Shown: positions 7,213 through 55,118 of the stretch, piece after piece
Layout of the letters: each line of letters begins with the position of its first letter
How positions within the stretch are numbered: the first letter of the stretch is position 1
Assembly: GCA_964603065.1 (NCBI GenBank)
Contig: CAZRTL010000004.1
Location: 9,686 to 73,685 of the forward strand
Reading direction: 5' to 3'
Length of the DNA stretch: 64,000 nt
From: Candidatus Woesearchaeota archaeon
GTDB lineage: Archaea > Nanobdellota > Nanobdellia > SCGC-AAA011-G17 > PNOQ01
Position numbers and translations under genes: made by a program
Notes under the pieces: generated by a model
What the model was told of the DNA's origin: nothing
The model's input: the letters and a program-made list of their open reading frames with translations, nothing else
Database searches by the model: none

Positions 7213-7255
7213 ATCTTGACAGCTTGCCATGTACGGCAAAAGGACTTATAAATGA
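7213..7255 (+). promoter_or_regulatory. conserved upstream motif (ATCTTGACAGCTTGCCAT...) + TATA box, copy 1
   Basis: One of five near-identical modules; TATA CTTATAAATG 19 bp before the ATG at 7274. Confidence 0.5.
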
Positions 7256-7273
7256 GATTTCCATTTTTTATTT

Positions 7274-7693
7274 ATGAAAAATAGATACTATGTAGATACT
7301 TCTATTTGGAGAGATTATTACGAGAATAGGTCTGACAAATTTAGGCCCTTGGGGGAATGGGCACTGGCTTTTTTTAATAATTCCTTAGAAAATGGAGATT
7401 TTATTCTTTATTCTGAGTTTGTTCTTTTAGAACTTGGAATTAAATATGATAGTGAGGAAATTGAAAAAATCTTGGAGATAGTGAATAGAAGAAATTTATT
7501 AGTTAAAGTAGAGATTACGGGGCAGCAAAGAAAAGAGGCCGCAATTCTCTGTAAGAAAAGGAAAGTTGCATTTGGAGATGCATTGCATATTATTTTAGCT
7601 AGAGATAACAACGCAATTATTATCACTAGAGATAAACATTTTTTAGAACTTGAAGATATATCTGAAATTAGAAAGCCGGAGAATTTAATCTAA
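7274..7693 (+). CDS. PIN-domain (VapC-like) ribonuclease
   Basis: N-terminal YYVDTSIW (PIN Asp), C-terminal ITRDKHF, 139 aa. Confidence 0.65.
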   Translation: MKNRYYVDTSIWRDYYENRSDKFRPLGEWALAFFNNSLENGDFILYSEFVLLELGIKYDSEEIEKILEIVNRRNLLVKVEITGQQRKEAAILCKKRKVAFGDALHIILARDNNAIIITRDKHFLELEDISEIRKPENLI

Positions 7694-7745
7694 TTTTATG
7701 CCAAATTTTTTGATGTATTTTTTCCCTACTTTTTCTCTAAGTTCT

Positions 7746-8036
7746 CTATCTTCTTTTAGAGTTGTGTTTGTTTTGGGTTTTCCAAAGTATTTTATTAGTT
7801 GATGTATTTGTTTTTGTTTGCTTAATTGTTTTTTTTTTTATGTTGTAACTGGTCTTTATCTTAGCTTTACCAAAGTATTTTTTTAGCTCATAAAGTGCTC
7901 TTTCTTTTTTTATTTCTTTTATTTTATCTCTGATAGCTTCTCTTATAAATTCTGTTTTTGTAGAATAATCTGATTTCATGGCTTGATCTATTTCTTTGGC
8001 CAAATTAGTTTCTACTTTAATTGTTATAGATTCCAT
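7746..8036 (-). CDS. ribbon-helix-helix (CopG/RHH) protein; C-terminal tail of doubtful validity
   Basis: N-terminal ITIKVETNLAKEIDQAMK...FIREAIRDKI is RHH-like; the last ~40 codons are low-complexity K/T-rich and overlap a poly-T/duplicated segment. Confidence 0.45.
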   Translation of the reverse strand: MESITIKVETNLAKEIDQAMKSDYSTKTEFIREAIRDKIKEIKKERALYELKKYFGKAKIKTSYNIKKKTIKQTKTNTSTNKILWKTQNKHNSKRR

Positions 8037-8121
8037 AGTAAGACTAAGTAAGACTAAGTAATATATAAAGTTTATGGTTTTTTAAGGAAAGTTTTAAATA
8101 ACTAAATCAAAAATCAATAGT

Positions 8122-9477
8122 ATGAAATATAAGACTCATAATTGCGGCGAACTAACTAAAAAAGAAGTTGGTAAGAATGTTATTTTATCTGGTTTTGTAG
8201 AATCAATTAGAAAGCACGGTAAGATTGGTTTTATTAATTTGAAGGATAGATATGGAATTACTCAAATTTTTTTAAGTAAAGAGTTTAATGAAGAATTATT
8301 GAAGTTAACTAGAGAGTCTGTTGTTAGAGTTGAAGGTGAAGTTAAGAAAAGACCTGATGCTAATAAAAAATTAAAAACGGGAGATATTGAAGTTTCTGCA
8401 AATAAATTTGAAATTTTAACTTTAGCTCCAGAATTGCCTTTAGAATTAAATGAAGATATTGAAAGTACTGAAGAAACTAGATTAAAATATAGATACTTAG
8501 ATTTGAGAAAACCTAAGATGCAGGATAATTTAGTTGTTAGGCATAAAATAATTAAAGCTATTAGAGATTTTTTGGATAAGGAGGATTTTTTAGATGTTGA
8601 AACTCCTTTACTAGCTAAGTCTACTCCAGAAGGAGCTAGAGATTATTTAGTTCCAAGTAGATTAGACAAGGGAAAGTTTTTTGCTTTACCACAAAGTCCG
8701 CAATTATTTAAACAGTTATTGATGATTGCTGGAATCGATAAATATTTTCAGATTGCTAAATGTATGAGAGATGAGGATTTGAGAGCAGATAGACAGCCGG
8801 AATTTACCCAATTAGATTTAGAGATGAGTTTTGTTGAGGAAGAAGATGTTTATGGTTTATTTGAGAAGATGTTAAAGTTTGTTTTCAAAGAAGTTTTGAA
8901 TGAAAATTTGAAAATTCCTTTTGAAAGAATTACTTACGAAGAATCTATGAAAAAATATAAATCAGATAAGCCCGATTTAAGAAAAAAAGGAGAAAAATTC
9001 AAGTTTGCTTGGGTGACTGAATTTCCATTATTTGAATGGAGTGAAGAGCAAAAGAGACATGTTTCTTGCCACCACCCGTTTACAGGAATACACCCAGAGG
9101 ATATCGATAAATTAGGTAAAACTCATGATATTAGAAGTAGAAGTTACGATTTAGTTATGAATGGTTGGGAGCTAGGTAGTGGAAGTGTAAGAATTCACGA
9201 TGGAAAATTACAAAGTGAAGTTTTCAAAGCTTTGAAGTTAGAGGAAAAAGATGCTAAAGAGAGATTTGGTTTCTTTTTAGACGCATTAAAGTTTGCTCCC
9301 CCTCATGCCGGCTTTGCAATAGGATTGGACCGGATGATAGCTTTGATTACTGAAAGTGAATCTATTAGAGAAGTTATTGCATTTCCAAAAAATAAAGATG
9401 CGAAAGATCTTATGTTGGATGCTCCAAGCAAAGTTGATAAAAAACAATTAGATGATTTAGGGATAAAGACAAAATGA
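8122..9477 (+). CDS. aspS: aspartyl-tRNA synthetase, archaeal type
   Basis: Class IIb motifs: FALPQSPQLFKQ, GxGxDR (AIGLDRM), N-terminal OB fold; 451 aa. Confidence 0.9.
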   Translation: MKYKTHNCGELTKKEVGKNVILSGFVESIRKHGKIGFINLKDRYGITQIFLSKEFNEELLKLTRESVVRVEGEVKKRPDANKKLKTGDIEVSANKFEILTLAPELPLELNEDIESTEETRLKYRYLDLRKPKMQDNLVVRHKIIKAIRDFLDKEDFLDVETPLLAKSTPEGARDYLVPSRLDKGKFFALPQSPQLFKQLLMIAGIDKYFQIAKCMRDEDLRADRQPEFTQLDLEMSFVEEEDVYGLFEKMLKFVFKEVLNENLKIPFERITYEESMKKYKSDKPDLRKKGEKFKFAWVTEFPLFEWSEEQKRHVSCHHPFTGIHPEDIDKLGKTHDIRSRSYDLVMNGWELGSGSVRIHDGKLQSEVFKALKLEEKDAKERFGFFLDALKFAPPHAGFAIGLDRMIALITESESIREVIAFPKNKDAKDLMLDAPSKVDKKQLDDLGIKTK

Positions 9478-11878: not shown

Positions 11879-11915
11879 AGTATAACTTTTAGAATTTTTA
11901 TTTAAATAGTTTTTG

Positions 11916-14920: not shown

Positions 14921-14995
14921 GGTGTGATTTAATTACTATATGTTTAAATTTGTTTTGGTTGAAAGGAGAAGAAAGGGGTTTTATCCCCGTTTCTA

Positions 14996-15187
14996 TTATT
15001 CTTCTAGTCTCCTCTCCGCACCGTCCCTTAGGTAACGGATATCTGCTAGCCATACTTTTCTTTCATATTTGGAGCCAGGCTCGTCTGTATAGGGTTCACT
15101 ATCGGCTTGGCTGATTTTTCTTTCGAGTTTGTCTAGTTCTCTTACAAGTGTTTTTTGGAGTTGTCTTCGTTGATATTCGTCCGTCAT
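14996..15187 (-). CDS. small charged hypothetical protein in a GC-elevated island
   Basis: 63 aa; codon usage GC-richer than its neighbours; directly downstream of the PHPT1-like gene on the same strand. Confidence 0.35.
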   Translation of the reverse strand: MTDEYQRRQLQKTLVRELDKLERKISQADSEPYTDEPGSKYERKVWLADIRYLRDGAERRLEE

Positions 15188-15210
15188 TTTTTATTCCCCT
15201 TTGTTGGTTT

Positions 15211-15561
15211 TTAGTATCCTTTCCCCATTTGTACTAGTACTTCTTTTCCTAGGTCGGATGCATATTCTTTTAGTATCTTTTCTACTGTTTCTTGGTCTGC
15301 TTTGCCGTAGTCTCCGCTGTATCCGTATGCGTGGATTGAATCTTCCGTAACTTTGATTCTTCCTCCGCCCGAAACACTTTCTAGGTGGAATCCTATTGGT
15401 AATTTTCGCGGGTATTGATGTACAATATGCCTATGCCATTCTACTCCTGGCTGACCGACCAAGACCGTTCTTTCGTCTTTTCCATCCGTTACTTCAGCAA
15501 GGACAAACTTATATGTTCCTTCTGCTGGTAGGACCACTTGTTCCAAATCTTTTAGTTCCAT
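15211..15561 (-). CDS. PHPT1/Janus (Ocnus) family phosphohistidine phosphatase homolog
   Basis: Aligns along its whole length with the human 14-kDa phosphohistidine phosphatase: GTYKFVLAEV vs GVFKYVLIRV; VEWHRHI vs AEYHADI (catalytic His); SGGGRIKV...IHAYGYSGDYG vs LGGGRISH...IHVYGYSMAYG; C-terminal GKGY vs NDGY. Strong Shine-Dalgarno GGAGGT upstream. Confidence 0.7.
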   Translation of the reverse strand: MELKDLEQVVLPAEGTYKFVLAEVTDGKDERTVLVGQPGVEWHRHIVHQYPRKLPIGFHLESVSGGGRIKVTEDSIHAYGYSGDYGKADQETVEKILKEYASDLGKEVLVQMGKGY

Positions 15562-15695
15562 TTTCGTTTACCTCCTTCAGTTGCGTCATTGCGTCGTGCT
15601 CAGGTTTTTGAGCATTAAATGTGTAAATAAATATTTGTTGTGGATATTTCTACAACAATAGAAACATTTATAATTAAGAAAAATTTTAGAAAAGT

Positions 15696-16418
15696 ATGCA
15701 ATTTGAAGAGATTAGAGAAACTTTGAAGAAAATAGGATTGGGACATAATGAATCTAAAATATATTTGACTTTGTTGAGATTTGGCCCTAGTATGGCCGGA
15801 AGAATTGCTAAAGAAGCAAATATTGATAGAAGTGCTTGTTATGATTCTTTGAAGGCTTTATTGAAAAAGGGTTTAATTAGTTATGCTATAGAGGCCAATA
15901 GGAAAAAATTTGCCGTTAATGATCCACAGAGATTGAAAGATTATTTGAAAGAGAAAGAAGAGCTTGTTGATGATATATTGCCGAATTTGAGTTCTTGGTT
16001 TTCTAGTAAGGGTGAAAAATCCCAGGTTTTGATGTATAAAGGTTATAAGGGATTGAAATCTGTTTTTGAAGATATTTTAAAAGAGGCTAAAGAAAATTTA
16101 GTTATAGATTCTTCTGGAGCGTTTATGCAGAGGATGCCTTATTATGCTCCACATTTTATTAGAGGTTTAGAAAAGAAGAAAATTAAAGTTAGACATATTG
16201 TTAGAAGGAAAACAAATACTAATCCTAGTAAAACTACTAGCTTAAGATATTTTTCAAGAAATATTAAAGAAACTACAATAACCACTAATATTTACAATAA
16301 TAAAGTTGCTATGATTATATGGTCGGATGTTCCTGAGGCAGTTGTGATAGAAAATAAAGGAGCGGCAGAGGCTTATAGAGATTATTTTGAAATGTTGTGG
16401 AAACAGGCCAAGAAATAA
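15696..16418 (+). CDS. TrmB-family transcriptional regulator
   Basis: N-terminal wHTH LGHNESKIYLTLLRFGPSMAGRIAKEANIDRSACYDSLKALLKKGLI typical of TrmB; 240 aa. Confidence 0.75.
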   Translation: MQFEEIRETLKKIGLGHNESKIYLTLLRFGPSMAGRIAKEANIDRSACYDSLKALLKKGLISYAIEANRKKFAVNDPQRLKDYLKEKEELVDDILPNLSSWFSSKGEKSQVLMYKGYKGLKSVFEDILKEAKENLVIDSSGAFMQRMPYYAPHFIRGLEKKKIKVRHIVRRKTNTNPSKTTSLRYFSRNIKETTITTNIYNNKVAMIIWSDVPEAVVIENKGAAEAYRDYFEMLWKQAKK

Positions 16419-16473
16419 TAAAATAACAAAAGGGTGCGCGAGCCGCGACAAATACTCCAATTCCCGACCCTTT

Positions 16474-16514
16474 ATCTTGTCAGCTTGCCACGCACACGGA
16501 CAGAATTTATAAAT
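16474..16514 (+). promoter_or_regulatory. conserved upstream motif + TATA box, copy 2
   Basis: ATCTTGTCAGCTTGCCACGCACACGGACAGAATTTATAAAT; ATG at 16535. Confidence 0.5.
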
Positions 16515-16534
16515 TAATTTTGTTATATTAAGTT

Positions 16535-17287
16535 ATGAAAATTAATGAAGATCTTGCTGAAGCATTTGGAATTCATGCTGGAGATGGATATTTAAGAGTT
16601 AAAGAAAGAAACAGAGGCGAGATAGATATTAGTGGAAATATTGAAGAAAAAGGATATTATGATGACCACGTAGTTCCTTTGTTTAATAAAATATTTAATT
16701 TAGATATGGGAGGAAGATATTTTTCTAGAGGTACTTATGGGTTTGTTAATTGTCAAAAGGAAGTTAGAAACGTTTTTCTTGAAGCAGGTTTCCCTTCTGG
16801 TAAAAAATCGCAAATTGTAAAAACCCCAGATTGTATTTTGAATAGTGGAGATGAAAAAATATACTCTAAATTTTTAAGGGGATATTTTGATACTGATGGT
16901 TGTTTATATTTTTGTAACAAAAAGGGAGGGGGAAAATATTGTGATTTCAAGAAAAAGTTTCATTATTATCCTCTTTTATCAGTATCTAGTGTATCGAAAA
17001 GATTAATTGAGGATGTGGTGTTTATTCTTAATAGAATTGGATTGCCTCACTATACTTATGATTATCAACCAAAAAATAAAAGAGATAATCATAAATGGGT
17101 TATAACTATTGCTGGAAAAAGTAGACTAGAGAAATGGATGAAATTAATAGGCACTAAAAATCCAGTAAAGCTCAGTAGATATTTAGTTTGGAAAAAGTTT
17201 GGATTTTGTCCTCCACATACTACTTTAAAGCAAAGGGAAGATTTTTTAAATGATAAAGCAGATATCAATTTACTATATTCAGCTTAA
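16535..17287 (+). CDS. free-standing double-motif LAGLIDADG endonuclease-family protein
   Basis: Motif 1 LAEAFGIHAGDGYL, motif 2 FLRGYFDTDGCL; 250 aa. Confidence 0.75.
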   Translation: MKINEDLAEAFGIHAGDGYLRVKERNRGEIDISGNIEEKGYYDDHVVPLFNKIFNLDMGGRYFSRGTYGFVNCQKEVRNVFLEAGFPSGKKSQIVKTPDCILNSGDEKIYSKFLRGYFDTDGCLYFCNKKGGGKYCDFKKKFHYYPLLSVSSVSKRLIEDVVFILNRIGLPHYTYDYQPKNKRDNHKWVITIAGKSRLEKWMKLIGTKNPVKLSRYLVWKKFGFCPPHTTLKQREDFLNDKADINLLYSA

Positions 17288-17354
17288 TGGGAGCCGAATG
17301 GTGGAGTTTAAGTACAAACCAACTGTGAAACCGTATTTCGACATTAGGTTGTTT

Positions 17355-17428
17355 GGGCCTGTAGTTTAATCTGGATAAAATTCTCGGTTTCGGCCCGAAG
17401 GATCCCGGTTCAAATCCGGGCGGGCCCG
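17355..17428 (+). tRNA. tRNA-Arg (anticodon TCG)
   Basis: Acceptor GGGCCTG/CGGGCCC, anticodon stem TCGG/CCGA with loop TTTCGGC, T-arm CCCGG-TTCAAAT-CCGGG, 74 nt, no encoded CCA. Confidence 0.7.
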
Positions 17429-17442
17429 TTTTATTTTGAAAG

Positions 17443-18114
17443 ATGCACGAATTAGTTAGAGCGTATAAGGAGGAATTTAAGAAAAGTTCTGATAGTGAGT
17501 TTGCTAAAGGCGCTCAGAGATATATGAAGAGTGAGATGCCTTATTATGGAATAAGGAGTCCTATAAAGAAAAAAATTGATTCTAGATTAAGAAAGAAATT
17601 TGAATTGAAGAGTTATGACGAATGGTATTCTGTAATAAATGAATTGTGGGATGCTCAGTATAGGGAAGAGAGATATGCTGCCATGACTGTTTTAAGTCAA
17701 TATAAAGAATATCATACTTTGAAAATAATTCCTTTGATTGAACATATTATAGTTACGGGAGCTTGGTGGGATTTTATTGATGGAATTGCTCCTAGAACTG
17801 TTGGAGACTTATTAAAGAAATATCCTAAAGAAATGGAAAAAGTTTTGAGGAGTTGGAATAACTCAGAACATATGTGGCTTAGGAGAGCTTCAATATTAGT
17901 ACAATTAAAATTTAAAGGTGAGACTGATGAAAAACTATTGTATTCATTTATTAAAAATAGGATGCATGAAAAAGAGTTTTTTATTAGAAAGGCTATTGGT
18001 TGGGCATTGAGAGAATATTCTAAGACAAATCCTGAATCTGTTAAGAAATTTATTTCTGAGAATAAAGATAATTTATCAAATTTGAGTATTAGAGAAGGTA
18101 GTAAGTATGTTTAA
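17443..18114 (+). CDS. DNA alkylation repair protein (AlkC/AlkD-like HEAT-repeat glycosylase family)
   Basis: N-terminus MHELVRAYKEEFKKSSDSEFAKGAQRYMKSEMPYYGIRSP is typical of the DNA_alkylation family; 223 aa. Confidence 0.65.
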   Translation: MHELVRAYKEEFKKSSDSEFAKGAQRYMKSEMPYYGIRSPIKKKIDSRLRKKFELKSYDEWYSVINELWDAQYREERYAAMTVLSQYKEYHTLKIIPLIEHIIVTGAWWDFIDGIAPRTVGDLLKKYPKEMEKVLRSWNNSEHMWLRRASILVQLKFKGETDEKLLYSFIKNRMHEKEFFIRKAIGWALREYSKTNPESVKKFISENKDNLSNLSIREGSKYV

Positions 18115-26778: not shown

Positions 26779-26876
26779 AATAAGAAATTGTGGAGATGGT
26801 TGGTTTATAAATGTTTCTAATGTATATTGTCAAGTACATAAATTAAGTATTTAAATAAAGTAAAACTCCTAATTAC

Positions 26877-28070
26877 ATGGGGGAGAGTGGATATAGTCAA
26901 AGAGATGCTACAAAATTTAATTTTGCTAATCTAGATTTAAACAGTTTGGATTTTTCTGGAAATAGTCCACCAGCAGTTTTTGTCGGTAGATTTGGTTATC
27001 CAAAGGTAAATGTGGGTGTTTTGAGTCCTACCCAGAAAGATGAACACTCCTTCTTGATGGATAACCCTAAAGAATGGGTTAAGAGGGGATTTAAAGATCA
27101 TGAAATTTTGAAATTAAGAGCTCAGCTAGTTAATGCTAGATTTCAGAGTCAAGTGAAAAATTTTGATAATAGATTAACAGATTTATCACAGGAAGTTGGA
27201 ATGGCACATAAACCTGTGGATATGGAAGTTTTCTTGAAAAATAAACCAAGAAATGTTTTGAAAATGGAAAATGTTGCTAAGCCATTGAGTAATAATGCTA
27301 ATGTTAAGAATATAAAATTACAAGAAAATCCAAAAATAAAAACTTCTGTAGATAAAGTAGTATCTGATGGAGATATGAAATCTGTTGACGGGATTTACAA
27401 ATTATACAATAAAGGATTTGATGATAATTTTTTATCTAAAGTTTTAAGCATAGGTTTACTTGGAAAAACTAAAAATAGAAAGTTAGTTCCTACGAGATGG
27501 TCAGTTACGGCAACCTATAGCACATTAGGTAATGAAATACTGAAAGATGTTAGATATAATGAATCTACTGAAAATCAATTATATTTTGAAAGTTATCTTG
27601 GTAATAATTATTTAGTCATGTTTTTTCCTGGAGTTTGGAGTTTTGAGCTATTTGAAATGCCGGTCCCGATGCGAGTTAATCCCTGGAGTAAACATGGAAA
27701 TTTTTATGCCACAGATTATGAAGGTTTTTTTGGTAGAAAATATTATGTTGAGGAAACTGCTGGAGGTTATGCCGCTGCAAGGTTTCCAATAATAGAGAAA
27801 TTAAAAAAATTGAGAAAGCAGGGAAGTGTTTTAGTTTTAAGATTTATTACTCATGAAGATAAGTATCCTTTGGGTAGTTGGGTCTGCGCTGAAGCAAGTA
27901 GAAAATCAATTGAAAGTACACCAATAAACTTTGAAGATAAAGAAACTATGCTGGAATATGCTAAGTTATTAATTAAGAAAAAATTTAATTTTGATATTGA
28001 GAAATTATTGAAAATTAGTAAAATTTTAAATGAAGAAAGAACTCAGATGAGAATGTCTGAGTTTATATAG
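26877..28070 (+). CDS. hypothetical protein
   Basis: 397 aa; no motif recognised. Confidence 0.4.
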   Translation: MGESGYSQRDATKFNFANLDLNSLDFSGNSPPAVFVGRFGYPKVNVGVLSPTQKDEHSFLMDNPKEWVKRGFKDHEILKLRAQLVNARFQSQVKNFDNRLTDLSQEVGMAHKPVDMEVFLKNKPRNVLKMENVAKPLSNNANVKNIKLQENPKIKTSVDKVVSDGDMKSVDGIYKLYNKGFDDNFLSKVLSIGLLGKTKNRKLVPTRWSVTATYSTLGNEILKDVRYNESTENQLYFESYLGNNYLVMFFPGVWSFELFEMPVPMRVNPWSKHGNFYATDYEGFFGRKYYVEETAGGYAAARFPIIEKLKKLRKQGSVLVLRFITHEDKYPLGSWVCAEASRKSIESTPINFEDKETMLEYAKLLIKKKFNFDIEKLLKISKILNEERTQMRMSEFI

Positions 28071-29265
28071 CGACCCATAAAATATTTCTTCCTTTTTTTC
28101 CAAATCTCGCTGTTTTATTATTTTTTTCTAAATTCCCTAAATGCTCTCGGATAGAAGAATTCCCATAATTTAGTATTTCAACTAGTTCCGCTGTTGTTTT
28201 TGGACTATTACTAAGAATTCTTAGGATCTTATCTCTAGTTGCTCCATCTTTTTCTTTTATTAATCCTCTTTGTTTTCTTTTGATTAGTATTCTAAAATTT
28301 TTTGTTTTGTGGGCAAAATTGCATAGAGGGAATGCTATTTCTAATTTCTCTATATCTTTGGCTAAATTCAAATAACTTTCTGAAGAGATTAAAAATCGAT
28401 ATGAATCAAAGACTCCGTATCTATATTTCTTTTTTATTGGCATACAGCTATAACTACATTTTATTGCTATTTCCCCTACATCTTTTATTAATCTATAATT
28501 TTTTGAATATATTTCTATTACTTCTCCAATGTTCCCATCATCAATTACAAAAGAAACTAATCCTGCTAATAGAAAGTTTTTTGGAAGGGATTTTATATTA
28601 TTAGGAATATATGCATCAAAGGTATTGGTATTTGGTAAATTAAAGTAATAGTTATAAAATTTTGTAATTATTTTTGGGATATACAACTTCCCCAATTTGA
28701 ATTCATTTTCACTATACTTAAAATCTCCGAAAATATTATTTAGTTTTGATAAAAAATTGTTTAATCCTTCGTTATTCATTTGTCTATATGAAGAATTTGT
28801 TTTCTTATCTCCAATATGCCCATCTCCGCAAAAGTGAAATATTACAGAAATTAATTCCGGAGTTAGATATATAGGCAATTTTGGGTTGTATATTCTGCTT
28901 GATCCAGATATTGCATTATAATATTTTATGTTTCTCTCAATTTCTTTCATTAATTTATTATTTCTGGTTTTACTTCTTGTGATTAATTTGGATATCTCTA
29001 TTAATACCCACAATGGGATTGTTCTAGCTTTCTTTTGATTGTTTGGTCCAGAATATCCTTTTTTCCAGTAAAAAAACATTCCCCTTGAATACTTTCTTTT
29101 TAGATTATACTTTCTACTTTGATTGTTAAGATAGTTTATTGCTTTATTTTCACTTTGGAATTGATTAATAAATCGTGCAAGTAAATTATATCTGAACTTC
29201 TCTTTTAATTTAATGTATGTTTCGATCGGAGGAAAATCCCAAATATGGATTTCTTTATATTTCAT
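28063..29265 (-). CDS. LAGLIDADG endonuclease-family protein with C-terminal winged HTH
   Basis: Motif 1 FHFCGDGHIGD, motif 2 LLAGLVSFVIDDGNIG; C-terminal ArsR-like wHTH (KILRILSNSPKTTAELVEILNYGNSSIREHLGNLEK); 400 aa. Confidence 0.65.
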   Translation of the reverse strand: MKYKEIHIWDFPPIETYIKLKEKFRYNLLARFINQFQSENKAINYLNNQSRKYNLKRKYSRGMFFYWKKGYSGPNNQKKARTIPLWVLIEISKLITRSKTRNNKLMKEIERNIKYYNAISGSSRIYNPKLPIYLTPELISVIFHFCGDGHIGDKKTNSSYRQMNNEGLNNFLSKLNNIFGDFKYSENEFKLGKLYIPKIITKFYNYYFNLPNTNTFDAYIPNNIKSLPKNFLLAGLVSFVIDDGNIGEVIEIYSKNYRLIKDVGEIAIKCSYSCMPIKKKYRYGVFDSYRFLISSESYLNLAKDIEKLEIAFPLCNFAHKTKNFRILIKRKQRGLIKEKDGATRDKILRILSNSPKTTAELVEILNYGNSSIREHLGNLEKNNKTARFGKKGRNILWVAI

Positions 29266-29285: not shown

Positions 29286-29326
29286 GTTTAAATAGTCTGT
29301 GTCCGTGTATGGCAAGCTGACAAGAT
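29286..29326 (-). promoter_or_regulatory. conserved upstream motif + TATA box, copy 3 (minus strand)
   Basis: Reverse complement reads ATCTTGTCAGCTTGCCATACACGGACACAGACTATTTAAAC; minus-strand start codon at 29265. Confidence 0.5.
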
Positions 29327-39530: not shown

Positions 39531-39571
39531 ATCTTGTCAGCTTGCCACGCACGCAGGTAGAGTTTATAAAT
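39531..39571 (+). promoter_or_regulatory. conserved upstream motif + TATA box, copy 4
   Basis: ATCTTGTCAGCTTGCCACGCACGCAGGTAGAGTTTATAAAT; ATG at 39592. Confidence 0.5.
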
Positions 39572-39591: not shown

Positions 39592-40437
39592 ATGGAAATG
39601 GATGTTGAAAGCACTTCTAAATTAATAAGGGGTAAGAAGGAAATTTGTGTTTTTTATAATGATAAAATTTTTGAAGAAGTTATGTCTAATTTGAATCCAA
39701 AAGAAATTATGGGAATTTCTAGAAGATCTGTTTATTATTGGAAGCAAAAAGAGAGACCTATTCCAGTTTCTCATTTAGTCAGTATTTGTAAAAATAATAA
39801 TATTGAAAAAATTAATCTTGTGTCTTTATCTACCAATAGCGGAAATAAAATTAATTTACCTGAAAGCAATAATTTATCTTTATATCATTTTTTGGGATTA
39901 TTATTGGGAGACGGATGTCTTTGTATAAGTAAAGAAAGAGAATTGAAGAGACAAAGCTACACAGTTAGAATTGCTGTTAATAGCAAAAATAGAATAAATC
40001 AAATTTCTAGATTAATGGAGTCTCTTTTTGGAATTAAACCTAGTTGTCATAAATGTAAAGGGTGCTATGAAGTTTGTATTTACTCTAAGGCTTTGTTATT
40101 TTTCTTGAATACATATTATGAAATCCCCATTGGTGAAAAATATCCACTTATGAAGGTTCCTTTGAGAATAAAAAATGATTTTGATAGTATAAGATATTTT
40201 CTAAGAGGATTAATGGATAGCGATGGAAATCAATATATCTATAGGGGGAGATTGTGTTTTCAATTGAGACAAAAATCTGGAGAATTTCTTAGTGAAGTCT
40301 ATAACTTATTTCATAAAATTGGTATGAATATAAATGGGCCCTATTTTGATAAAGCTAATAATTCTTGGGTGATTTGGTGTAGTAAAAAAAACATTGTAGA
40401 TAAATTTATAAATGAAATAGATGCTCTTAAAATTTAG
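39592..40437 (+). CDS. LAGLIDADG endonuclease-family protein with N-terminal HTH
   Basis: Motif 1 LYHFLGLLLGDGCL, motif 2 FLRGLMDSDGNQ; N-terminal HTH-like segment (EIMGISRRSVYYWKQK); 281 aa. Confidence 0.7.
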   Translation: MEMDVESTSKLIRGKKEICVFYNDKIFEEVMSNLNPKEIMGISRRSVYYWKQKERPIPVSHLVSICKNNNIEKINLVSLSTNSGNKINLPESNNLSLYHFLGLLLGDGCLCISKERELKRQSYTVRIAVNSKNRINQISRLMESLFGIKPSCHKCKGCYEVCIYSKALLFFLNTYYEIPIGEKYPLMKVPLRIKNDFDSIRYFLRGLMDSDGNQYIYRGRLCFQLRQKSGEFLSEVYNLFHKIGMNINGPYFDKANNSWVIWCSKKNIVDKFINEIDALKI

Positions 40438-40438
40438 T

Positions 40439-40560
40439 GGACTGGTAGCTCAGCTTGGATAGAGCACTAAAGAAGTTTTGCGCGAGTATGCTTCTGTGTA
40501 GGCCTTCTAAACCAAGTTGAAGAAAGCTAGGGGTCGAGGGTTCAAATCCCTTCCAGTCCG
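40439..40560 (+). tRNA. tRNA-like gene interrupted by a ~48-nt insertion (intron-containing tRNA or pseudo-tRNA); anticodon unresolved
   Basis: Perfect 7-bp acceptor stem GGACTGG/CCAGTCC; canonical D-arm TAGCTCAGCTTGGATAGAGCA; T-arm GAGGG-TTCAAAT-CCCTT; ~48 extra nt between them. No single-intron model gives a canonical anticodon loop. It starts 2 nt after the stop codon of the LAGLIDADG gene. Confidence 0.5.
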
Positions 40561-41249: not shown

Positions 41250-41252
41250 TTT

Positions 41253-46091: not shown

Positions 46092-46110
46092 TTCGGTTGT
46101 TAATTACTTT

Positions 46111-47864: not shown

Positions 47865-47909
47865 TAAGCATCACTCAATAAAAAATATAAAAAAAGAAAA
47901 AGGAAAAAT

Positions 47910-48206: not shown

Positions 48207-48224
48207 TTTAATACCTCCAATGAA

Positions 48225-49867: not shown

Positions 49868-49981
49868 ATTTCCCTCCTACTAAACGTAGTACTAATGGGT
49901 TATTAGTTGGTTTTTTGAGGCATTTATAAAGATTTTGGTTGATAGGAAATAATATAAAATTGACCACTTCCTCAATTAATT

Positions 49982-50236: not shown

Positions 50237-50295
50237 GGATTGATTGTGATTTAATCTATATATAATTTGGGCTCCAGATCTATTGGCATAAAGTT

Positions 50296-51266: not shown

Positions 51267-51359
51267 AATTAAGAAATATTTATAATTGTTTAAATAGTTT
51301 TGGTTTTGCTGATAATAAAAAAGTTTATATAGTAATTTATCTACTGTAAAGTAGAAAAA

Positions 51360-51731: not shown

Positions 51732-51765
51732 ATATTTATATATCAGTTCTCTTTGTTTTAGATAA

Positions 51766-52119
51766 ATGGCAGATTTAATAGCAGTTTTATCTACGGGAAA
51801 GGGCACTTGGGGACATGTGAATGGTTTAATTAGTGGTGAAGAATGGGATAAAATTTATTTATTGACTAATGATTTTGGGAAAGATACTTTTAAGGCAAAT
51901 GATAAAACAGAGTTGATTGTTTTTAATTTTAATGCTAAAGTTGAAGAGTTGGCTAAAGAAATGGAAGAGAAATTGAAAGAGAAGATTTCTGGAGAAGTGG
52001 GGGTTAATTTTATTTCTGGAGCGGGAAAGGAGCATATGGCTTTAGTTAGTGCTTTGATTAAGTTAGGGGTTGGTTTTAGATTAGTTGTTTCTGAGATGGA
52101 TGGTGTTAAGGAGTTATAG
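51766..52119 (+). CDS. hypothetical Rossmann-like protein (weak CARF-like motifs)
   Basis: IAVLSTGKGTW and FISGAGKEHMALVSALI loosely resemble CARF motif-1/motif-2; 117 aa; speculative. Confidence 0.3.
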   Translation: MADLIAVLSTGKGTWGHVNGLISGEEWDKIYLLTNDFGKDTFKANDKTELIVFNFNAKVEELAKEMEEKLKEKISGEVGVNFISGAGKEHMALVSALIKLGVGFRLVVSEMDGVKEL

Positions 52120-52154
52120 TAAGATTTATATCTAACTTAATTCTTCTTTTTCAT

Positions 52155-53198
52155 ATGGGTTTATTTGATGATATTCTACACGATAATGAATCGCTTTTCA
52201 TTAATGAGCAGGCTCTAGATTATGATTATGTTCCTAAAGAAATCCCTCATAGAGAAAATCAGCAGCATTACATTGCAGAAGTGATAAAACCTTTATTTCA
52301 AAGAAAATCTGGAAGAAATTTATTTATTACTGGAGTTCCTGGAATTGGAAAAACAGTTGCTGTTAAACATGTTTTAAGAGAGTTAGAGGAAAAGACGGAT
52401 GATATTTTTACAGTATATATTAATTGCTGGAAGAAAGATACTAGTTATAAAATTTTATTGGATATTTGTGAGCAGCTAAATTACAAGTGGATTCATAATA
52501 AGAGAACAGATGAATTAATGAAAATTGTTTCTGATTTGGTTAATAAAAAATCTGTTGTTGTTGTTTTAGATGAAGTAGATAGGGTTAAGGAGTTAGATAT
52601 TTTGTATAATTTCTCCGAGGATTTTTATAAAAAATGTATTTTAATGATTGCTAATAATGGAGATTGGATTATTAATTTGGATGAAAGAATAAAATCTAGA
52701 CTAAATGTTGATATTTTGGAGTTTAAGTCTTATAATTATAATGAGACTTTTGATATTTTGAAACAAAGAGCAAACTATGCTTTTGTTGAAAATGTTGTTG
52801 ATGAGAAAGTTATTGAATTAACTGCTAGTAAAGCCTTTGAGAATGGTGATGTTAGAACGGGAATATTTTTGTTGAGAGAAAGTGGGAATGTTGCCGAGAT
52901 GAAAGCTTCTAGGAATATCTTGGTTGAGCATTGTGAGAAGGCTATTGAAAAAATGAATAATTTTAAAATTAAAAATGTTGATGAATTTGGTGAAGAGGAA
53001 AAGAAGATTTTAGAGCTAATAAAAGAAAATTCTGGATTAACCATAAAAGAGTTGTTTGATTTGTATTCTGGAGGGGTCTCATATAGGACATTTCATAGGA
53101 AAATAGAAGAATTAGATAAAAATAATATGATTTCTTTGGGGGAATTAAAAGATAAGTCTAAAGTTGTTAATTATAATAAGAAATTGAGTGAGTTCTAG
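52155..53198 (+). CDS. orc1: Orc1/Cdc6 AAA+ replication initiator
   Basis: Walker A GVPGIGKT, Walker B VVVLDEVD, C-terminal winged helix; 347 aa. Confidence 0.85.
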   Translation: MGLFDDILHDNESLFINEQALDYDYVPKEIPHRENQQHYIAEVIKPLFQRKSGRNLFITGVPGIGKTVAVKHVLRELEEKTDDIFTVYINCWKKDTSYKILLDICEQLNYKWIHNKRTDELMKIVSDLVNKKSVVVVLDEVDRVKELDILYNFSEDFYKKCILMIANNGDWIINLDERIKSRLNVDILEFKSYNYNETFDILKQRANYAFVENVVDEKVIELTASKAFENGDVRTGIFLLRESGNVAEMKASRNILVEHCEKAIEKMNNFKIKNVDEFGEEEKKILELIKENSGLTIKELFDLYSGGVSYRTFHRKIEELDKNNMISLGELKDKSKVVNYNKKLSEF

Positions 53199-53232
53199 TA
53201 ATACTTATAAGTTTTCCTCAATTCCCTTTTTC

Positions 53233-53553
53233 ATGGGTAAAAAGCTAACCTTAGGATTAATTGTATTAGGATCTTTTGCCTTGGGTTTTGTTACTAAGGG
53301 AAATATGGAGTTTGGAAAACCTGCCAAAATTGTTAGAAATCCTGGAACTATGTTAACTGGAGCCGAGATAGAAACTCAATTTGGGATTATGAATCGATTG
53401 AATGTTTATTTTTCGGATGGTAATATTTACACTTTAGAATATATTAGAAATAGTCTTCCTGGACAGTTTATTAATCCTTTTGTTGAAGAAAGAAATTATC
53501 CTGAATTTAATACTACAAGACAAGATAATTTGAGGGAGGATTTTTATATTTGA
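53233..53553 (+). CDS. small secreted hypothetical protein
   Basis: Start taken at MGKKLTLGLIVLGSFALGFV (signal peptide); the track ORF starts earlier at 53188. Confidence 0.35.
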   Translation: MGKKLTLGLIVLGSFALGFVTKGNMEFGKPAKIVRNPGTMLTGAEIETQFGIMNRLNVYFSDGNIYTLEYIRNSLPGQFINPFVEERNYPEFNTTRQDNLREDFYI

Positions 53554-53624
53554 GGATAATATATTTTCGATAATATAATTATTTAAAAAAGTTAATTGGT
53601 TTAAACTTATAGGAGGAATAAAAA

Positions 53625-55040
53625 ATGGCTGAAGAAAAAACAAAATCTGGAATATATGTTATTACTGCTGCGCAAGCAGTTCAATCTGAGAGAAATGGAG
53701 AGAGATACTCCGATATAGAAACCTCTGCTCAAGGATCTGAAAGAGGTGCCCCGAATAAGAATTTAATAAAGGGGTTAGAAAGATATTGCAAAGATAATGG
53801 GGCAGAGCTTAATATTATCAGGATGAGTGGGATGAATAATTCTGAAAGAGAATTACATTCTTTCTTTCAAGATAGAGAAGATGTTCATGACCACCATAAT
53901 AAAAAATTGAATAGCAACATTGAAATTTCAAATATGGTTGTTCCTCCTCAAAATGTGGATCCTGCTTCTGGAAGAGATAGGTTTGTTCAGAGGGAATTAA
54001 CTAAGGTTGTTGCACACTCTAAACAGAGATTTAAGGCGATTCCTGCAAGCAATGCTGACTTGCCAAAACTTTTTGTGAGTACTGGTTGTGTTACACACCC
54101 AAACTATCACCCATTAAATCATAGGGGGGATGCTGCTAAGAGAGATCATATGTATGGGGCAGTAGTTGTTGAAGTTATAGATGATAAATTTTATAATGTT
54201 AGAATAATGAGGAGTCAGAAAAATGGAATATTTGCAGACATGGGTCTAAAATATGATGGTGGTAAGAAACCAAGTAAAGCTAAAGTTGAAGCTTTGATTT
54301 TAGGAGATTGGCATGTGGGAGATCATGACCCTACAACAGTGGATGCAAATTATGAGATGATTGATTTTTTTAATCCATCTAGAATTTTTGTTCATGACTT
54401 ATTTAATGCACATAGTGTAAATCCTCATGAAAAAGATAATCTAGCTAGTAGGGTCAGAATGTTTGAAGAAGGAAGACTTTACTTAGAGCAAGAATTCAAA
54501 GAAAACTATGATGAAGTTTGTAGATTAGCAAAGGCTATGGGAAAAAGAGAAGTTAATGTAGTTGCTGCAAATCATCCTTTCTTTGTAGATAGGTACTTAG
54601 AAAGAGGAGAGTTTATGAAAGAACCTTGGAATGCTAGAATTGCTTCCAAACTTGTTGAAGCTGTAATGGATAAGAAAGATCCGGTTGAAGAAGGAATAAG
54701 AATGATGGGAAAAGTTCCTTCTAATGTTAATTTCTTAGGACTTGGGGACGATTATAAGGTCTGGGGGTGGCAATGTGCCAGTCATGGACATATGGGAATG
54801 TCTGGAGCTAGAGGGAGTGTTCGTAGCAGAGAAATAAACCATGGAAAAAGTTTTACTGGACATACTCACACACCCGAAATACTGCGAGACACTTTTATAG
54901 TTGGGACAAGTACTGATTTGAATCTAGATTATACTAAAGGTCAGGGTTCTGCTTGGATGGGTGCAAATGGATTAATTTATGAAGGGGGTTTGGCTCAGTT
55001 GCTTCCAATTATAAAAGGTAAATGGAGAATAAAAAATTAA
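53625..55040 (+). CDS. large hypothetical protein with degenerate calcineurin-like metallophosphoesterase motifs in the C-terminal half
   Basis: GDWHVGDHD, ANHPFF, GHMG, GHTHTP motifs; 471 aa; N-terminal half unrecognised; codon usage slightly GC-richer. Confidence 0.45.
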   Translation: MAEEKTKSGIYVITAAQAVQSERNGERYSDIETSAQGSERGAPNKNLIKGLERYCKDNGAELNIIRMSGMNNSERELHSFFQDREDVHDHHNKKLNSNIEISNMVVPPQNVDPASGRDRFVQRELTKVVAHSKQRFKAIPASNADLPKLFVSTGCVTHPNYHPLNHRGDAAKRDHMYGAVVVEVIDDKFYNVRIMRSQKNGIFADMGLKYDGGKKPSKAKVEALILGDWHVGDHDPTTVDANYEMIDFFNPSRIFVHDLFNAHSVNPHEKDNLASRVRMFEEGRLYLEQEFKENYDEVCRLAKAMGKREVNVVAANHPFFVDRYLERGEFMKEPWNARIASKLVEAVMDKKDPVEEGIRMMGKVPSNVNFLGLGDDYKVWGWQCASHGHMGMSGARGSVRSREINHGKSFTGHTHTPEILRDTFIVGTSTDLNLDYTKGQGSAWMGANGLIYEGGLAQLLPIIKGKWRIKN

Positions 55041-55075
55041 TTTTCTTTTCTTTTTTAATTCTTAAGTAACAAACC

Positions 55076-55118
55076 ATCTTGTCAGCTTGCCACGCACGCG
55101 GATAGGATATTTAAATGG
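55076..55118 (+). promoter_or_regulatory. conserved upstream motif + TATA box, copy 5
   Basis: ATCTTGTCAGCTTGCCACGCACGCGGATAGGATATTTAAAT; first plausible ATG at 55150 preceded by GGTGA. Confidence 0.5.

What the first reader, a model, noticed from the sequence alone, without database searches (positions are those of the whole stretch)
7213..55118. Five copies of a conserved ~40-45 bp promoter module upstream of nuclease-type and selfish-looking genes
An 18-bp core, ATCTTG(T/A)CAGCTTGCCA(C/T), is followed by RYACRS, a GGAYAGR-like block and a TATA box (TTTATAAAT or TATTTAAA), with identical spacing in every copy. The five copies are at 7213, 16474, 29326..29286 (minus strand), 39531 and 55076. 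Every copy sits 20-35 bp upstream of a start codon. The downstream genes are a PIN/VapC toxin (7274), three divergent LAGLIDADG proteins (16535, 29265 minus, 39592) and a cluster of tiny overlapping ORFs (55150-55590). Sequence upstream of the core is unrelated between copies, so this is a discrete cassette and not a duplicated region. It could be a shared operator or upstream activating site that defines a regulon of nucleases. It could equally be the conserved promoter-bearing end of a family of mobile gene cassettes. Five copies in 64 kb is a very high density for an archaeal genome.
Basis: seen in the sequence. Interest (0 to 1): 0.8.

Follow-up and report, generated by a model that had tools for sequence, protein, structure and literature searches.

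The report
Shared recombination-gene promoter used by nuclease genes
A 41-base promoter module occurs five times in this DPANN (Woesearchaeota) archaeal window; in related genomes the same module drives the recombinase (radA) and Hef repair genes, so a set of homing-endonuclease-type genes appears to be wired into the host's recombination/repair promoter.

Summary
Five exact copies of ATCTTGNCAGCTTGCCA occur where 0.02 are expected. Each lies exactly 15 nt upstream of a TATA box. The start codon follows 20 nt after the TATA in four copies and 33 nt after it in the fifth. That 29-nt TATA-to-ATG distance is the genome's usual leaderless geometry.

The core is a tandem TTGNCA-GC-TTGNCA followed by YRYAC, at about -58 to -40. 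The window holds no degenerate copies, no repeat flanks and no RNA-family match.

The window is from a Woesearchaeota-type archaeon. In related MAGs and metagenome contigs the element, with natural variants and the same 15-nt spacing, sits in front of two host genes. One is the radA operon (8 of 10 lineages). The other is hef (5 of 6).

It also heads at least seven mutually divergent free-standing LAGLIDADG genes (20-28% identity, catalytic acids kept), a PIN gene and a conserved LAGLIDADG+wHTH gene next to nre. One homing-endonuclease gene is nested downstream of the resident radA module. Other such genes are present, absent or decayed between relatives.

Best reading: an upstream binding site for an unidentified factor that defines a recombination/repair regulon joined by selfish nuclease genes. 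The factor, its sign and the inducing signal are inferred. I found no prior description.

The parts
7213..7253 (+). Module copy 1: core ATCTTGACAGCTTGCCA, 15-nt spacer, CTTATAAAT
   Evidence: An orthologous copy in L129 keeps the core, apart from the free N position, while the flanks diverge.
7274..7693 (+). PIN-domain gene; ATG 20 nt after the TATA (predicted leaderless)
   Evidence: Pfam PIN E 2.8e-12. dN/dS against the L129 ortholog is 0.12. The only nearby RHH/CopG gene (7746-8036) is convergent, not an upstream antitoxin.
16474..16514 (+). Module copy 2
16535..17287 (+). Free-standing LAGLIDADG gene (250 aa)
   Evidence: Pfam LAGLIDADG_3 E 8e-11. Both acidic motif residues are kept. In the relative L129 only the 3' remnant survives and the module is gone. 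A similar C-terminal remnant is seen in L040.
17354..17429 (+). tRNA-Arg(TCG) directly downstream of the copy-2 gene
17443..18114 (+). AlkD-like DNA alkylation repair gene starting 14 nt after the tRNA; possibly co-transcribed from copy 2
   Evidence: Pfam DNA_alkylation E 9e-65. Co-transcription is inferred from the 14-nt gap.
29286..29326 (-). Module copy 3
28063..29265 (-). Conserved LAGLIDADG-fold + C-terminal ArsR-type winged-helix protein (400 aa); a host-type gene, not a sporadic homing endonuclease
   Evidence: 101 homolog clusters at 40-68% identity, named by their sources as Woesearchaeota, Nanoarchaeota, Diapherotrites and Hadarchaeota. GDGH and D(E/D)G motifs are invariant. The same 8-nt convergent overlap with nre is seen in L147-152. 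AlphaFold pLDDT 93; Foldseek hits are intein homing endonucleases, I-Tsp061I and WhiA.
39531..39571 (+). Module copy 4
   Evidence: An orthologous copy is present in L124.
39592..40437 (+). LAGLIDADG gene (281 aa)
   Evidence: Pfam LAGLIDADG_3 E 3e-10. The ortholog at the same site in L124 has 71% aa identity and dN/dS 0.19.
40439..40560 (+). Intron-containing tRNA; its own TATA (TTTATAAAT, 40405-40413) lies inside the 3' end of the LAGLIDADG ORF
   Evidence: Rfam tRNA 42.5 bits. Sequence. The TATA-to-5'-end distance fits the genome's 29-30 nt rule.
55076..55116 (+). Module copy 5
55150..55590 (+). Three tandem small ORFs (42, 32 and 71 aa) with Shine-Dalgarno-like sequences; function unknown
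   Evidence: No Pfam or PHROG family match.
26827..26856 (+). Candidate half-module: TTGTCA, 15 nt (beginning AGTAC), TATTTAAAT, then 20 nt to the ATG of nre (26877-28070)
   Evidence: The pattern is expected about 0.9 times per window by chance, so this is only suggestive.

Best explanation
The module is a complete archaeal promoter made of two parts. The first is an ordinary BRE/TATA core that starts transcription at, or within a base or two of, the A of the ATG, giving a leaderless mRNA. The second is a lineage-specific upstream element, (A/T)TC-TTGNCA-GC-TTGNCA-YRYAC, at about -61 to -40.

Most likely mechanism: a sequence-specific protein binds the tandem TTGNCA units immediately upstream of the BRE and helps TFB/TBP to load. 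That makes it an activator site, like other archaeal elements found just upstream of the BRE.

The element is resident at host recombination/repair genes in this Woesearchaeota clade: the radA operon, hef, and probably the LAGLIDADG-wHTH gene paired with nre. Free-standing nuclease genes carry the same element or sit behind it. These include many unrelated LAGLIDADG homing-endonuclease-type genes, a phage-type homing-endonuclease gene and a PIN gene. They would therefore be transcribed together with the recombination machinery that repairs the breaks they make.

Shown here:
- the element, its rigid geometry and its orientation;
- its conservation at orthologous host promoters;
- the gene set it heads;
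- turnover of the nuclease genes between relatives.

Inferred:
- the transcription start;
- the existence and identity of the binding factor;
- activation rather than repression;
- any link to DNA damage.
For: Statistics and geometry:
- Five exact copies against 0.02 expected.
- A fixed 15-nt gap to the TATA in all 25 distinct module copies tabulated (sequences).
- The TATA-to-ATG distance of 29 nt equals the genome-wide mode. Of 73 window genes, 21 have a TATA 8-mer starting 29-30 nt before the start codon.

Selection on the element:
- Flanks are at random identity while the core is at 0.98.
- Orthologous pairs (window/L129, window/L124) keep the core, while neighbouring genes have dS 0.6-1.5.
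- Position 22 (C) is invariant in 25 of 25 modules and position 21 (A) in 23 of 25.

Host genes:
- radA operon with exact core: L021/119/120, L118, L128.
- radA operon with variants: ATCTTGTCAGCTTGTCA, TTCTTGCCAACTTGTCA, TTTGTCAGCTTGACA, TTGACAGGGTTGACA, TTGCCACCTTGTCA.
- One lineage has a different tandem repeat (CGCGACA twice) at the same 15-nt position.
- hef keeps the full core in 2 lineages and only the proximal unit in 3 more, always 15 nt from the TATA.

Co-option by nuclease genes:
- Eight LAGLIDADG proteins at 20-28% identity all sit behind the same core.
- The L021 363-aa gene matches PHROG homing-endonuclease families. It sits inside the radA-operon leader, between the conserved leader pieces.
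- Gain, loss or decay is seen at L015, L129 and L040.

Precedent for an element at this position: the Sulfolobus DNA-damage motif A(N)TTTC at -44 to -39 (PMC5817253). Sta1 activates a radA paralogue (PMC2175319).
Against: - No expression data, no mapped transcription start and no identified binding protein.
- Other repair genes in the window lack the element: the XPD-like gene at 131-1960, and nre has at best a half-site.
- The core carries roughly 30 bits, more than a regulator of a genome of about 1 Mb needs. The window shows no graded series of weaker sites.
- Functions are unknown for the small ORFs and for the L080 protein.
- The other-genome copies with an exact core were found by searching for that core, which inflates its apparent invariance. 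The degenerate radA and hef variants were found independently, through the proteins.
- The distant relatives L146 (hef) and L147 (LAGLIDADG-wHTH) lack the element.
Confidence: 0.55

Rival explanations
1. The module is primarily the promoter-bearing 5' end of mobile nuclease-gene cassettes. Host genes such as radA and hef acquired it secondarily, when a cassette landed upstream of them and its ORF was later deleted.
For: - In L015 the module plus a LAGLIDADG gene occupies a site where the window has an unrelated gene. Homology breaks within about 5 nt of the core's 5' edge and at the next gene's ATG.
- In L129 the module and the gene's 5' part are lost together.
- L040 keeps a module followed by a gene remnant.
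- In L118 and L128 the radA module is followed by a long leader rather than an ATG at +61. That is what deletion of a nested gene such as the one in L021 would leave.
Against: - radA and hef carry the element at orthologous positions in many lineages, with in-place sequence drift.
- In L021 the leader pieces on both sides of the inserted gene match the uninterrupted leaders, so the module predates the insertion.
- There are no inverted or direct terminal repeats and no target duplications.
- Spacers of nuclease-associated modules (0.47 identity) are no more alike than those of orthologous radA promoters (0.56).
- GC content of the module-driven genes is typical of the genome.
Confidence: 0.15
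2. The element is an extended basal-promoter feature that simply makes a strong constitutive promoter. It would be a favoured contact for TFB, TFE or a chromatin protein, with no dedicated regulator or signal.
For: - Rigid 15-nt phasing with the TATA.
- The proximal unit alone persists at hef.
- No candidate regulator was identified.
Against: - Only 5 (perhaps 6) of about 73 promoters in the window have it. The 21 other leaderless promoters with a TATA at the 29-30 nt mode lack it, including those of aminoacyl-tRNA synthetase genes.
- The genes that carry it are heavily biased to DNA transactions.
- One lineage has replaced the repeat with a different sequence at the same place, which suggests co-evolution with a specific reader.
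Confidence: 0.12
3. The core is a DNA target or landing site recognised by the LAGLIDADG enzymes themselves. This would be either a homing site next to which the genes insert, or autoregulation of the kind described for I-TevI.
For: - The conserved stretch of 17-22 bp is long and asymmetric, which is in the size range of LAGLIDADG targets.
- I-TevI represses its own promoter (PMC3384342).
- Nuclease genes repeatedly sit at exactly +61 from the core.
- The conserved LAGLIDADG-wHTH protein is itself behind a module.
Against: - The LAGLIDADG proteins share only 20-28% identity, so they are unlikely to read one identical 17-mer.
- radA, hef and PIN promoters carry the element with no LAGLIDADG gene attached.
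- A homing site would normally be split or altered by the insertion, yet the core is intact.
- The +61 distance is simply the genome's leaderless geometry.
Confidence: 0.08
4. It is a bacterial-type sigma-70 promoter (TTGCCA, 17 nt, TATAAA) carried by genes exchanged with bacteria.
For: The proximal TTGNCA lies 17 nt from TATAAA, resembling -35/-10 spacing. This is read directly from the sequences.
Against: - The window and its relatives encode archaeal machinery: RadA/Rad51-type recombinase, Hef, PolD, Orc1/Cdc6, Nre.
- There is no Shine-Dalgarno sequence or leader in four copies.
- The consensus scan of the copy-2 region does not call the TTGCCA-17-TATAAA pair, because TATAAA ends in A.
- All true copies are in Woesearchaeota-type contigs. 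The matches in bacterial contigs lack the TATA architecture.
Confidence: 0.02

Closest known systems
Sulfolobales DNA-damage-response promoter motif 5'-A(N)TTTC-3' at -44 to -39, upstream of the BRE (PMC5817253; related TFB3 work PMC6101594)
   Same: A short, non-palindromic element immediately upstream of BRE/TATA. It is shared by a set of DNA-transfer and DNA-repair genes and conserved between related species.
   Different: Unrelated sequence. Ours is much longer (a tandem hexamer plus YRYAC, about 22 nt), lies slightly further upstream (-58 to -40), and occurs in a DPANN lineage. It heads radA itself and many homing-endonuclease-type genes. No induction data exist for ours.
Sta1 activation of the radA paralogue sso0777 in Sulfolobus solfataricus (PMC2175319)
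   Same: An activator site at the promoter of a recombinase-family gene. From my own knowledge, Sta1 is also the host factor reported to activate SSV1 viral promoters, so one host factor serves both a repair gene and a selfish element.
   Different: The site is a different sequence (TTATT / CANGNA / TTATT). Sta1 was identified biochemically. Here the factor is unknown and the selfish partners are free-standing nuclease genes, not a virus.
Bacterial LexA/SOS regulon (own knowledge)
   Same: One cis element marks the recombinase gene plus other repair genes. Mobile elements have plugged into it.
   Different: An SOS box is a repressor operator overlapping the promoter. Ours lies upstream of the BRE, a position typical of archaeal activators. 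Archaea have no LexA.
Putative mobile promoters / promoter reuse in prokaryotes (PMC3488235, PMC3575422)
   Same: Near-identical promoter sequence in front of non-homologous genes within one genome.
   Different: Those were defined by long, highly similar upstream stretches taken to be recently propagated. Here only a 17-22 nt core and the TATA are conserved, the rest has diverged, and the element is also fixed at orthologous host genes across species.
Free-standing homing endonuclease genes of T4-like phages (seg/mob genes; PMC2790892)
   Same: Intergenic endonuclease genes with their own promoters and sporadic presence between related genomes.
   Different: Those are GIY-YIG or HNH genes in phage genomes using phage promoters. 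Here they are LAGLIDADG genes in a cellular archaeal chromosome, sharing the promoter element of radA and hef.
WhiA/DUF199: LAGLIDADG fold + C-terminal HTH transcription factor of Gram-positive bacteria (PMC3384342)
   Same: The copy-3 protein has the same two-part architecture. WhiA structures are among its Foldseek hits.
   Different: WhiA has lost the catalytic acidic residues. The archaeal family keeps them invariant. There is no sequence-level relationship, and the HTH is of ArsR type.

Membership tests
Archaeal upstream regulatory element (transcription-factor site adjacent to BRE/TATA) | Fixed position and orientation relative to BRE/TATA | tested here: met
   A 15-nt gap to the TATA in all 25 module copies tabulated, always pointing at the downstream gene.
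Archaeal upstream regulatory element (transcription-factor site adjacent to BRE/TATA) | Conserved at orthologous promoters across species while the flanks diverge | tested here: met
   radA operon in 8 of 10 lineages and hef in 5 of 6, with variants at the N positions. Flanks are at random identity.
Archaeal upstream regulatory element (transcription-factor site adjacent to BRE/TATA) | Shared by functionally related genes (a regulon) | tested here: met
   RadA, Hef, LAGLIDADG, PD-(D/E)XK/HNH-type and PIN genes. Every annotatable product acts on nucleic acids. Some products have no known function.
Archaeal upstream regulatory element (transcription-factor site adjacent to BRE/TATA) | Bound by a specific protein and required for regulated transcription | not testable with these tools
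   Needs EMSA or pull-down, in vitro transcription, or transcriptomes.
Mobile repeat or cassette end (MITE, IS end, integron attC-type site) | Terminal inverted or direct repeats, target-site duplication, or a second conserved end | tested here: not met
   Neither the matrix scan nor the mismatch scans find a second copy in either orientation near any gene. Flanks are unrelated.
Mobile repeat or cassette end (MITE, IS end, integron attC-type site) | Presence/absence between close relatives with breakpoints at the element edge | tested here: inconclusive
   In L015 the break lies within 5 nt of the core, but the window has another gene there, not an empty site. In L129 the deletion removes more than the cassette.
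Free-standing LAGLIDADG homing endonuclease genes | Two LAGLIDADG motifs with the metal-binding acidic residue in each | tested here: met
   All 8 aligned proteins keep D/E in both motifs. Pfam LAGLIDADG_3 is significant for 5 of them. The fold is confirmed for the copy-3 protein.
Free-standing LAGLIDADG homing endonuclease genes | Sporadic distribution, and decay in some genomes | tested here: met
   The copy-2 type is decayed in L129 and L040. L015 carries a lineage-specific insertion. This is not met for the copy-3 family, which is broadly conserved and syntenic with nre. Copy 4 is intact in both genomes compared.
Free-standing LAGLIDADG homing endonuclease genes | Site-specific cleavage of the endonuclease-free allele, and homing | not testable with these tools
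   Requires enzyme assays on empty-site DNA.
VapBC toxin-antitoxin operon (for the PIN gene) | Antitoxin gene immediately upstream in the same operon | tested here: not met
   The module abuts the PIN ATG with no upstream ORF. The RHH gene at 7746-8036 is downstream and convergent.
WhiA-like domesticated LAGLIDADG regulator (for the copy-3 protein) | LAGLIDADG fold tethered to a C-terminal HTH | tested here: met
   AlphaFold pLDDT 93. Foldseek hits to LAGLIDADG enzymes, to WhiA (8dy7_I, 3hyi) and to ArsR/SmtB winged helices. Pfam HTH_5.
WhiA-like domesticated LAGLIDADG regulator (for the copy-3 protein) | Loss of the catalytic acidic residues | tested here: not met
   D148 (at least 90% conserved) and D242 (invariant) are conserved across 28 family members. 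WhiA lacks these residues (PMC3384342).
Bacterial sigma-70 promoter | -35/-10 hexamers in a bacterium, with leader and Shine-Dalgarno sequence | tested here: not met
   Archaeal gene content. The consensus scan does not call the pair. Four copies have no leader.

The most novel reading that the evidence does not exclude
A DPANN (Woesearchaeota) lineage has an SOS-like recombination/repair regulon defined by a tandem TTGNCA element upstream of the BRE. A diverse population of free-standing homing-endonuclease genes has captured that element or nested behind it. Selfish DNA-cutting genes would then be switched on only together with RadA and Hef, the machinery that both repairs their breaks and copies them into new sites. 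I put that extension alone at roughly 0.1.
Probability: 0.3. Interest if true: 0.8.

Novelty: new variant of a known kind. Interest (0 to 1): 0.6.

Why it matters
Almost nothing is known about gene regulation in DPANN archaea, and there is no described regulator of radA outside a few model archaea. This element gives a concrete, sequence-defined handle on both questions:
- a 22-nt probe for pulling down the factor;
- a testable list of co-regulated genes (radA operon, hef, the nre neighbour, and the nuclease genes);
- a natural example of selfish homing-endonuclease genes apparently tying their expression to the host recombinase.

If co-regulation is confirmed, it would show how free-standing endonuclease genes can persist in very small cellular genomes. 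It would also provide a compact regulated promoter for future genetic tools in these organisms.

Tried and rejected
- **Known RNA or repeat.** Rfam at gathering thresholds gives only three tRNAs and nothing at the modules. The flanks are unrelated.
- **tRNA-promoter idea.** tRNAs follow two of the LAGLIDADG genes, but not in most other loci. The intron tRNA has its own TATA inside the ORF's 3' end.
- **Weaker copies in the window.** The matrix scan and the relaxed scans give none. Only one half-site candidate appears, at nre.
- **Viral origin.** The viral-contig scan returned 0 hits. GC content of the module-driven genes is normal.
- **Genome-collection scan.** 112 of the 118 loci were judged chance hits: non-Woesearchaeota contigs lacking the 15-nt/TATA architecture.
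- **Recent propagation of nuclease-associated modules.** Spacer identities do not support it.
- **Sigma-70 reading.** Rejected.
- **Sequence search of PDB.** No hits for the copy-2 or copy-3 proteins. BLASTP between copy-3 and copy-4 proteins gives nothing. The fold had to be obtained by prediction.
- **87-aa RadA-linked protein.** The model has four strands followed by a helix, but only weak Pur-alpha and Sub1 resemblance (E > 0.01), so no assignment was made.
- **Integron or origin-recognition-box ideas.** Considered and dropped. The copies are dispersed among housekeeping genes over 48 kb, always promoter-phased, and do not resemble those consensus sites. This rests on my own knowledge of those consensus sequences.
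- **Literature.** Seven full-text searches found no description of this motif.

Full report

Yes. ATCTTGWCAGCTTGCCAY with up to two mismatches gives five hits, all exact, at 7213+, 16474+, 29326-, 39531+ and 55076+. The chance expectation is 0.02.

Reading the five loci shows one rigid layout:
- a 17-nt core;
- a 15-nt spacer;
- a 9-nt TATA box (TTTATAAAT, CTTATAAAT or TATTTAAAT/C);
- 20 nt to an ATG in four copies, or 33 nt to the first of three small ORFs in the fifth.

Pairwise identity between copies is 0.27 in the 40 nt upstream, where random expectation is 0.29. It is 0.98 in the core, 0.57 in the spacer, 0.78 in the TATA and 0.49 between the TATA and the ATG. This is a discrete module, not a duplicated region.

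A weight matrix built from 19 distinct copies scores the five at 51-61 bits. Nothing else exceeds the shuffle range. TTGNCAGCTTGNCA with one mismatch still finds only these five. Rfam finds only three tRNAs in the window.

**2. What organism, and is the TATA a real promoter?**

Window gene content is archaeal: an Nre protein, archaeal-type aminoacyl-tRNA synthetases, an XPD-like helicase. Relatives also encode RadA, Hef, PolD and Orc1/Cdc6. All genuine matches elsewhere lie in contigs labelled Woesearchaeota or Nanoarchaeota (DPANN).

In the window, 21 of 73 genes have a TATA 8-mer starting exactly 29-30 nt before the start codon. Leaderless transcription from a TATA at about -26 is therefore the norm here. 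The module's TATA-to-ATG distance of 29 nt is that norm.

I therefore infer that transcription starts at the A of the ATG. That places the core at -61 to -45 and the conserved spacer start at -44 to -40.

**3. The element in other genomes**

Six are Woesearchaeota MAG contigs that show the full architecture. The rest are non-Woesearchaeota (almost all bacterial) contigs without the 15-nt/TATA architecture, and I judged them chance hits.

A more specific pattern on metagenome contigs gave 12 loci, 11 of them genuine. The viral collection gave none.

Downstream genes in these loci:
- LAGLIDADG genes: L015, L060, L124, L125, L126, L130.
- The PIN ortholog: L129.
- An uncharacterised 261-aa gene: L080.
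- A full-length Hef helicase-nuclease: L121-123.
- A two-gene operon encoding an 84-88 aa acidic-tailed protein and RadA: L118, L128.
- The same operon preceded by a 363-aa gene: L021/119/120. That gene matches PHROG homing-endonuclease families.

**4. Residency at host genes**

I fetched further radA operons through homologs of the small protein, and further hef loci through Hef homologs. This route does not depend on the motif.

radA operon:
- Eight of ten lineages have the tandem element 15 nt from TTTATAAAT.
- The natural variants are ATCTTGTCAGCTTGTCA, TTCTTGCCAACTTGTCA, TTTGTCAGCTTGACA, TTGACAGGGTTGACA and TTGCCACCTTGTCA.
- One lineage has a different tandem repeat, CGCGACA-CGCGACA, at the same 15-nt position.
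- One further lineage has only a weak match.

hef:
- Two lineages have the full core.
- Three keep only the proximal unit (CTTGTCA or CTTGCCA), again exactly 15 nt from the TATA and with a leaderless ATG.
- A distant complete genome has nothing.

The element is thus TTGNCA-GC-TTGNCA followed by YRYAC. Position 22 (C) is invariant in 25 of 25 modules and position 21 (A) in 23 of 25. It drifts in place at orthologous host promoters, as a binding site under selection would.

**5. Relation to the nuclease genes**

The eight LAGLIDADG proteins are only 20-28% identical to the first sequence of the alignment (window 16535-17287). All keep the acidic residue of both motifs.

Turnover between relatives:
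- In L015 a module plus a 341-aa LAGLIDADG gene lies between the orthologs of window genes 3578-4975 (TldD/PmbA) and 2437-2916 (HD domain).
- The window has a RIO-like gene on the other strand at that place.
- Homology breaks within about 5 nt of the core, and the upstream gene's stop codon lies inside the core. Homology resumes at the ATG of the HD gene.
- In L129, about 80% identical to the window, the copy-2 module and the 5' part of its gene are gone. A 3' remnant, the tRNA-Arg and the AlkD-like gene remain.
- L040 keeps a module followed by a similar remnant.

By contrast, copy 4 and the PIN gene are intact at the same sites in L124 and L129, with dN/dS of 0.19 and 0.12.

In L021 the homing-endonuclease gene sits inside the 5' leader of the radA operon. 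The conserved leader pieces (CCTCCT upstream, AAATGCGAAAGCAAAGGAGG downstream) flank it, and the module lies upstream of both. That gene therefore landed behind a resident module.

Spacers of nuclease-associated modules are no more alike (0.47) than those of orthologous radA promoters (0.56). GC content of the module-driven genes is typical of the genome. I see no sign of a recently propagated cassette family.

**6. Copy 3 is a different kind of gene**

The 400-aa product has 101 homolog clusters at 40-68% identity. Their sources name them as Woesearchaeota, Nanoarchaeota, Diapherotrites and Hadarchaeota. It has invariant GDGH and D(E/D)G motifs. The same 8-nt convergent overlap with nre is seen in a 55%-identical relative.

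Its model (pLDDT 93) matches intein and intron LAGLIDADG endonucleases and WhiA, and has an ArsR-type winged helix at the C-terminus. It looks like a resident gene, possibly repair-linked or regulatory, and not a sporadic homing endonuclease. The distant relative has no module upstream of it.

nre itself has a candidate half-module in the window with the exact geometry. One such match is expected by chance.

**7. Mechanism and rivals**

The best-supported reading is an upstream factor-binding site fused to a standard leaderless core promoter. It defines a recombination/repair regulon that free-standing nuclease genes have joined.

Its position immediately upstream of the BRE favours activation. 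The analogies are the Sulfolobus A(N)TTTC element at -44 to -39 (PMC5817253) and Sta1 at a radA paralogue (PMC2175319). The factor, the sign of regulation and any DNA-damage signal are inference.

Rivals:
- A cassette end that host genes inherited secondarily. This is possible but disfavoured by sections 4 and 5.
- A constitutive extended promoter. This is disfavoured by the narrow, functionally biased gene set and by the swapped repeat in one lineage.
- A target or operator for the LAGLIDADG proteins themselves. This is disfavoured by their divergence and by modules that have no LAGLIDADG gene.
- A sigma-70 promoter.

**8. Known or new?**

Seven full-text searches found no description of this motif or of radA regulation in DPANN. 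In kind it is an archaeal upstream regulatory element, which is a known kind.

What is new:
- the specific element;
- its presence at radA and hef;
- its sharing with many unrelated homing-endonuclease-type genes.

I rate it a new variant of a known kind, with interest 0.6.

**9. Limits**

- Copies with an exact core in other genomes were ascertained by searching for that core.
- No complete-genome census could be run.
- No expression or binding data exist.

Noticed in passing
L118 5824-6078; also L131 10001-10261, L134 10001-10264, L021 (minus strand): An 81-91 aa protein with an acidic C-terminal tail is always encoded immediately upstream of, and overlapping, radA. The family is small (37 clusters, no Pfam match; the few with a source name are labelled Woesearchaeota or Nanoarchaeota). 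The model has four strands followed by a helix (pLDDT 83.5). Resemblance to Pur-alpha and Sub1/PC4 single-strand binders is weak (E > 0.01). It could be a recombination mediator or SSB-like partner of RadA.
   Followed up: partly
radA-operon leaders, about 10-25 nt before the start codon: L021, L118, L128, L131, L134, L135, L138, L141, L142: A conserved AAAAU-SS-GAAA-SS-AA element lies just before the Shine-Dalgarno sequence. Its two S-S pairs covary (GC/GC, GG/CC, CC/GG). It is either a mini-hairpin with a GNRA loop or a small palindromic protein site. An upstream CCUCC box could pair with the Shine-Dalgarno sequence.
   Followed up: partly
L021 minus strand, about +79 to +1170 from the module (the same in L119 and L120): A 363-aa gene with a zinc-ribbon region and a C-terminal nuclease domain (matching PHROG families labelled HNH and homing endonuclease) is nested inside the 5' leader of the radA operon. 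A second copy of the leader hairpin and Shine-Dalgarno sequence precedes it, so both genes keep a ribosome-binding site.
   Followed up: partly
L139 3280-3330 / L140: In a contig labelled Nanoarchaeota, the radA operon has a different tandem repeat (CGCGACA-CGCGACA). It lies at the same 15-nt distance from TTTATAAAT. This suggests the site and its reader co-evolved.
   Followed up: no
window 53625-55040 (+): A 471-aa protein with metallophosphoesterase-like motifs matches PHROG 1745, 'DNA transfer protein', at E 4.8e-80. It has no Pfam hit. This phage-type gene sits in an archaeal chromosome directly upstream of module copy 5.
   Followed up: no
window 40405-40560: A 122-nt intron-containing tRNA starts 1 nt after the LAGLIDADG stop codon (TAG 40435-40437; tRNA from 40439). 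A perfect TTTATAAAT at 40405-40413, inside the ORF's 3' end, is placed to start transcription about 5 nt before the tRNA. ARAGORN misses this tRNA in the window and calls its L124 ortholog 'tRNA-Pyl'.
   Followed up: partly
window 14960-17123 versus L129 10806-11379: A 2.2-kb segment is replaced in the close relative by a 148-aa gene. The window segment holds an Ocnus/Janus-family gene (15211-15561; GC 0.425 against a genome mean of 0.31), a TrmB-family gene and the copy-2 cassette. A GC-rich 40-nt stretch (about 16425-16465) lies just upstream of copy 2.
   Followed up: partly
window 28063-28070 and L147 7202-7209: The LAGLIDADG-wHTH gene and nre overlap convergently by 8 nt at their 3' ends, in two lineages that are 55% identical in the protein. 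This is a conserved gene pair of unknown joint function.
   Followed up: partly
window 7746-8036 (-): An RHH/CopG-family gene lies convergent to the module-driven PIN gene. This is not the usual antitoxin-then-toxin operon order.
   Followed up: no
L068 634-660: In a low-GC contig (0.27) labelled only 'bacterium', the exact core is followed after 2 nt, not 15, by TTTATAAAT. This may be chance or a rearranged module.
   Followed up: no
L131 8846-9844: In one lineage a 332-aa protein with two HTH_24/AsnC-type domains is encoded immediately upstream of the radA module. It is absent at that position in the other lineages.
   Followed up: no
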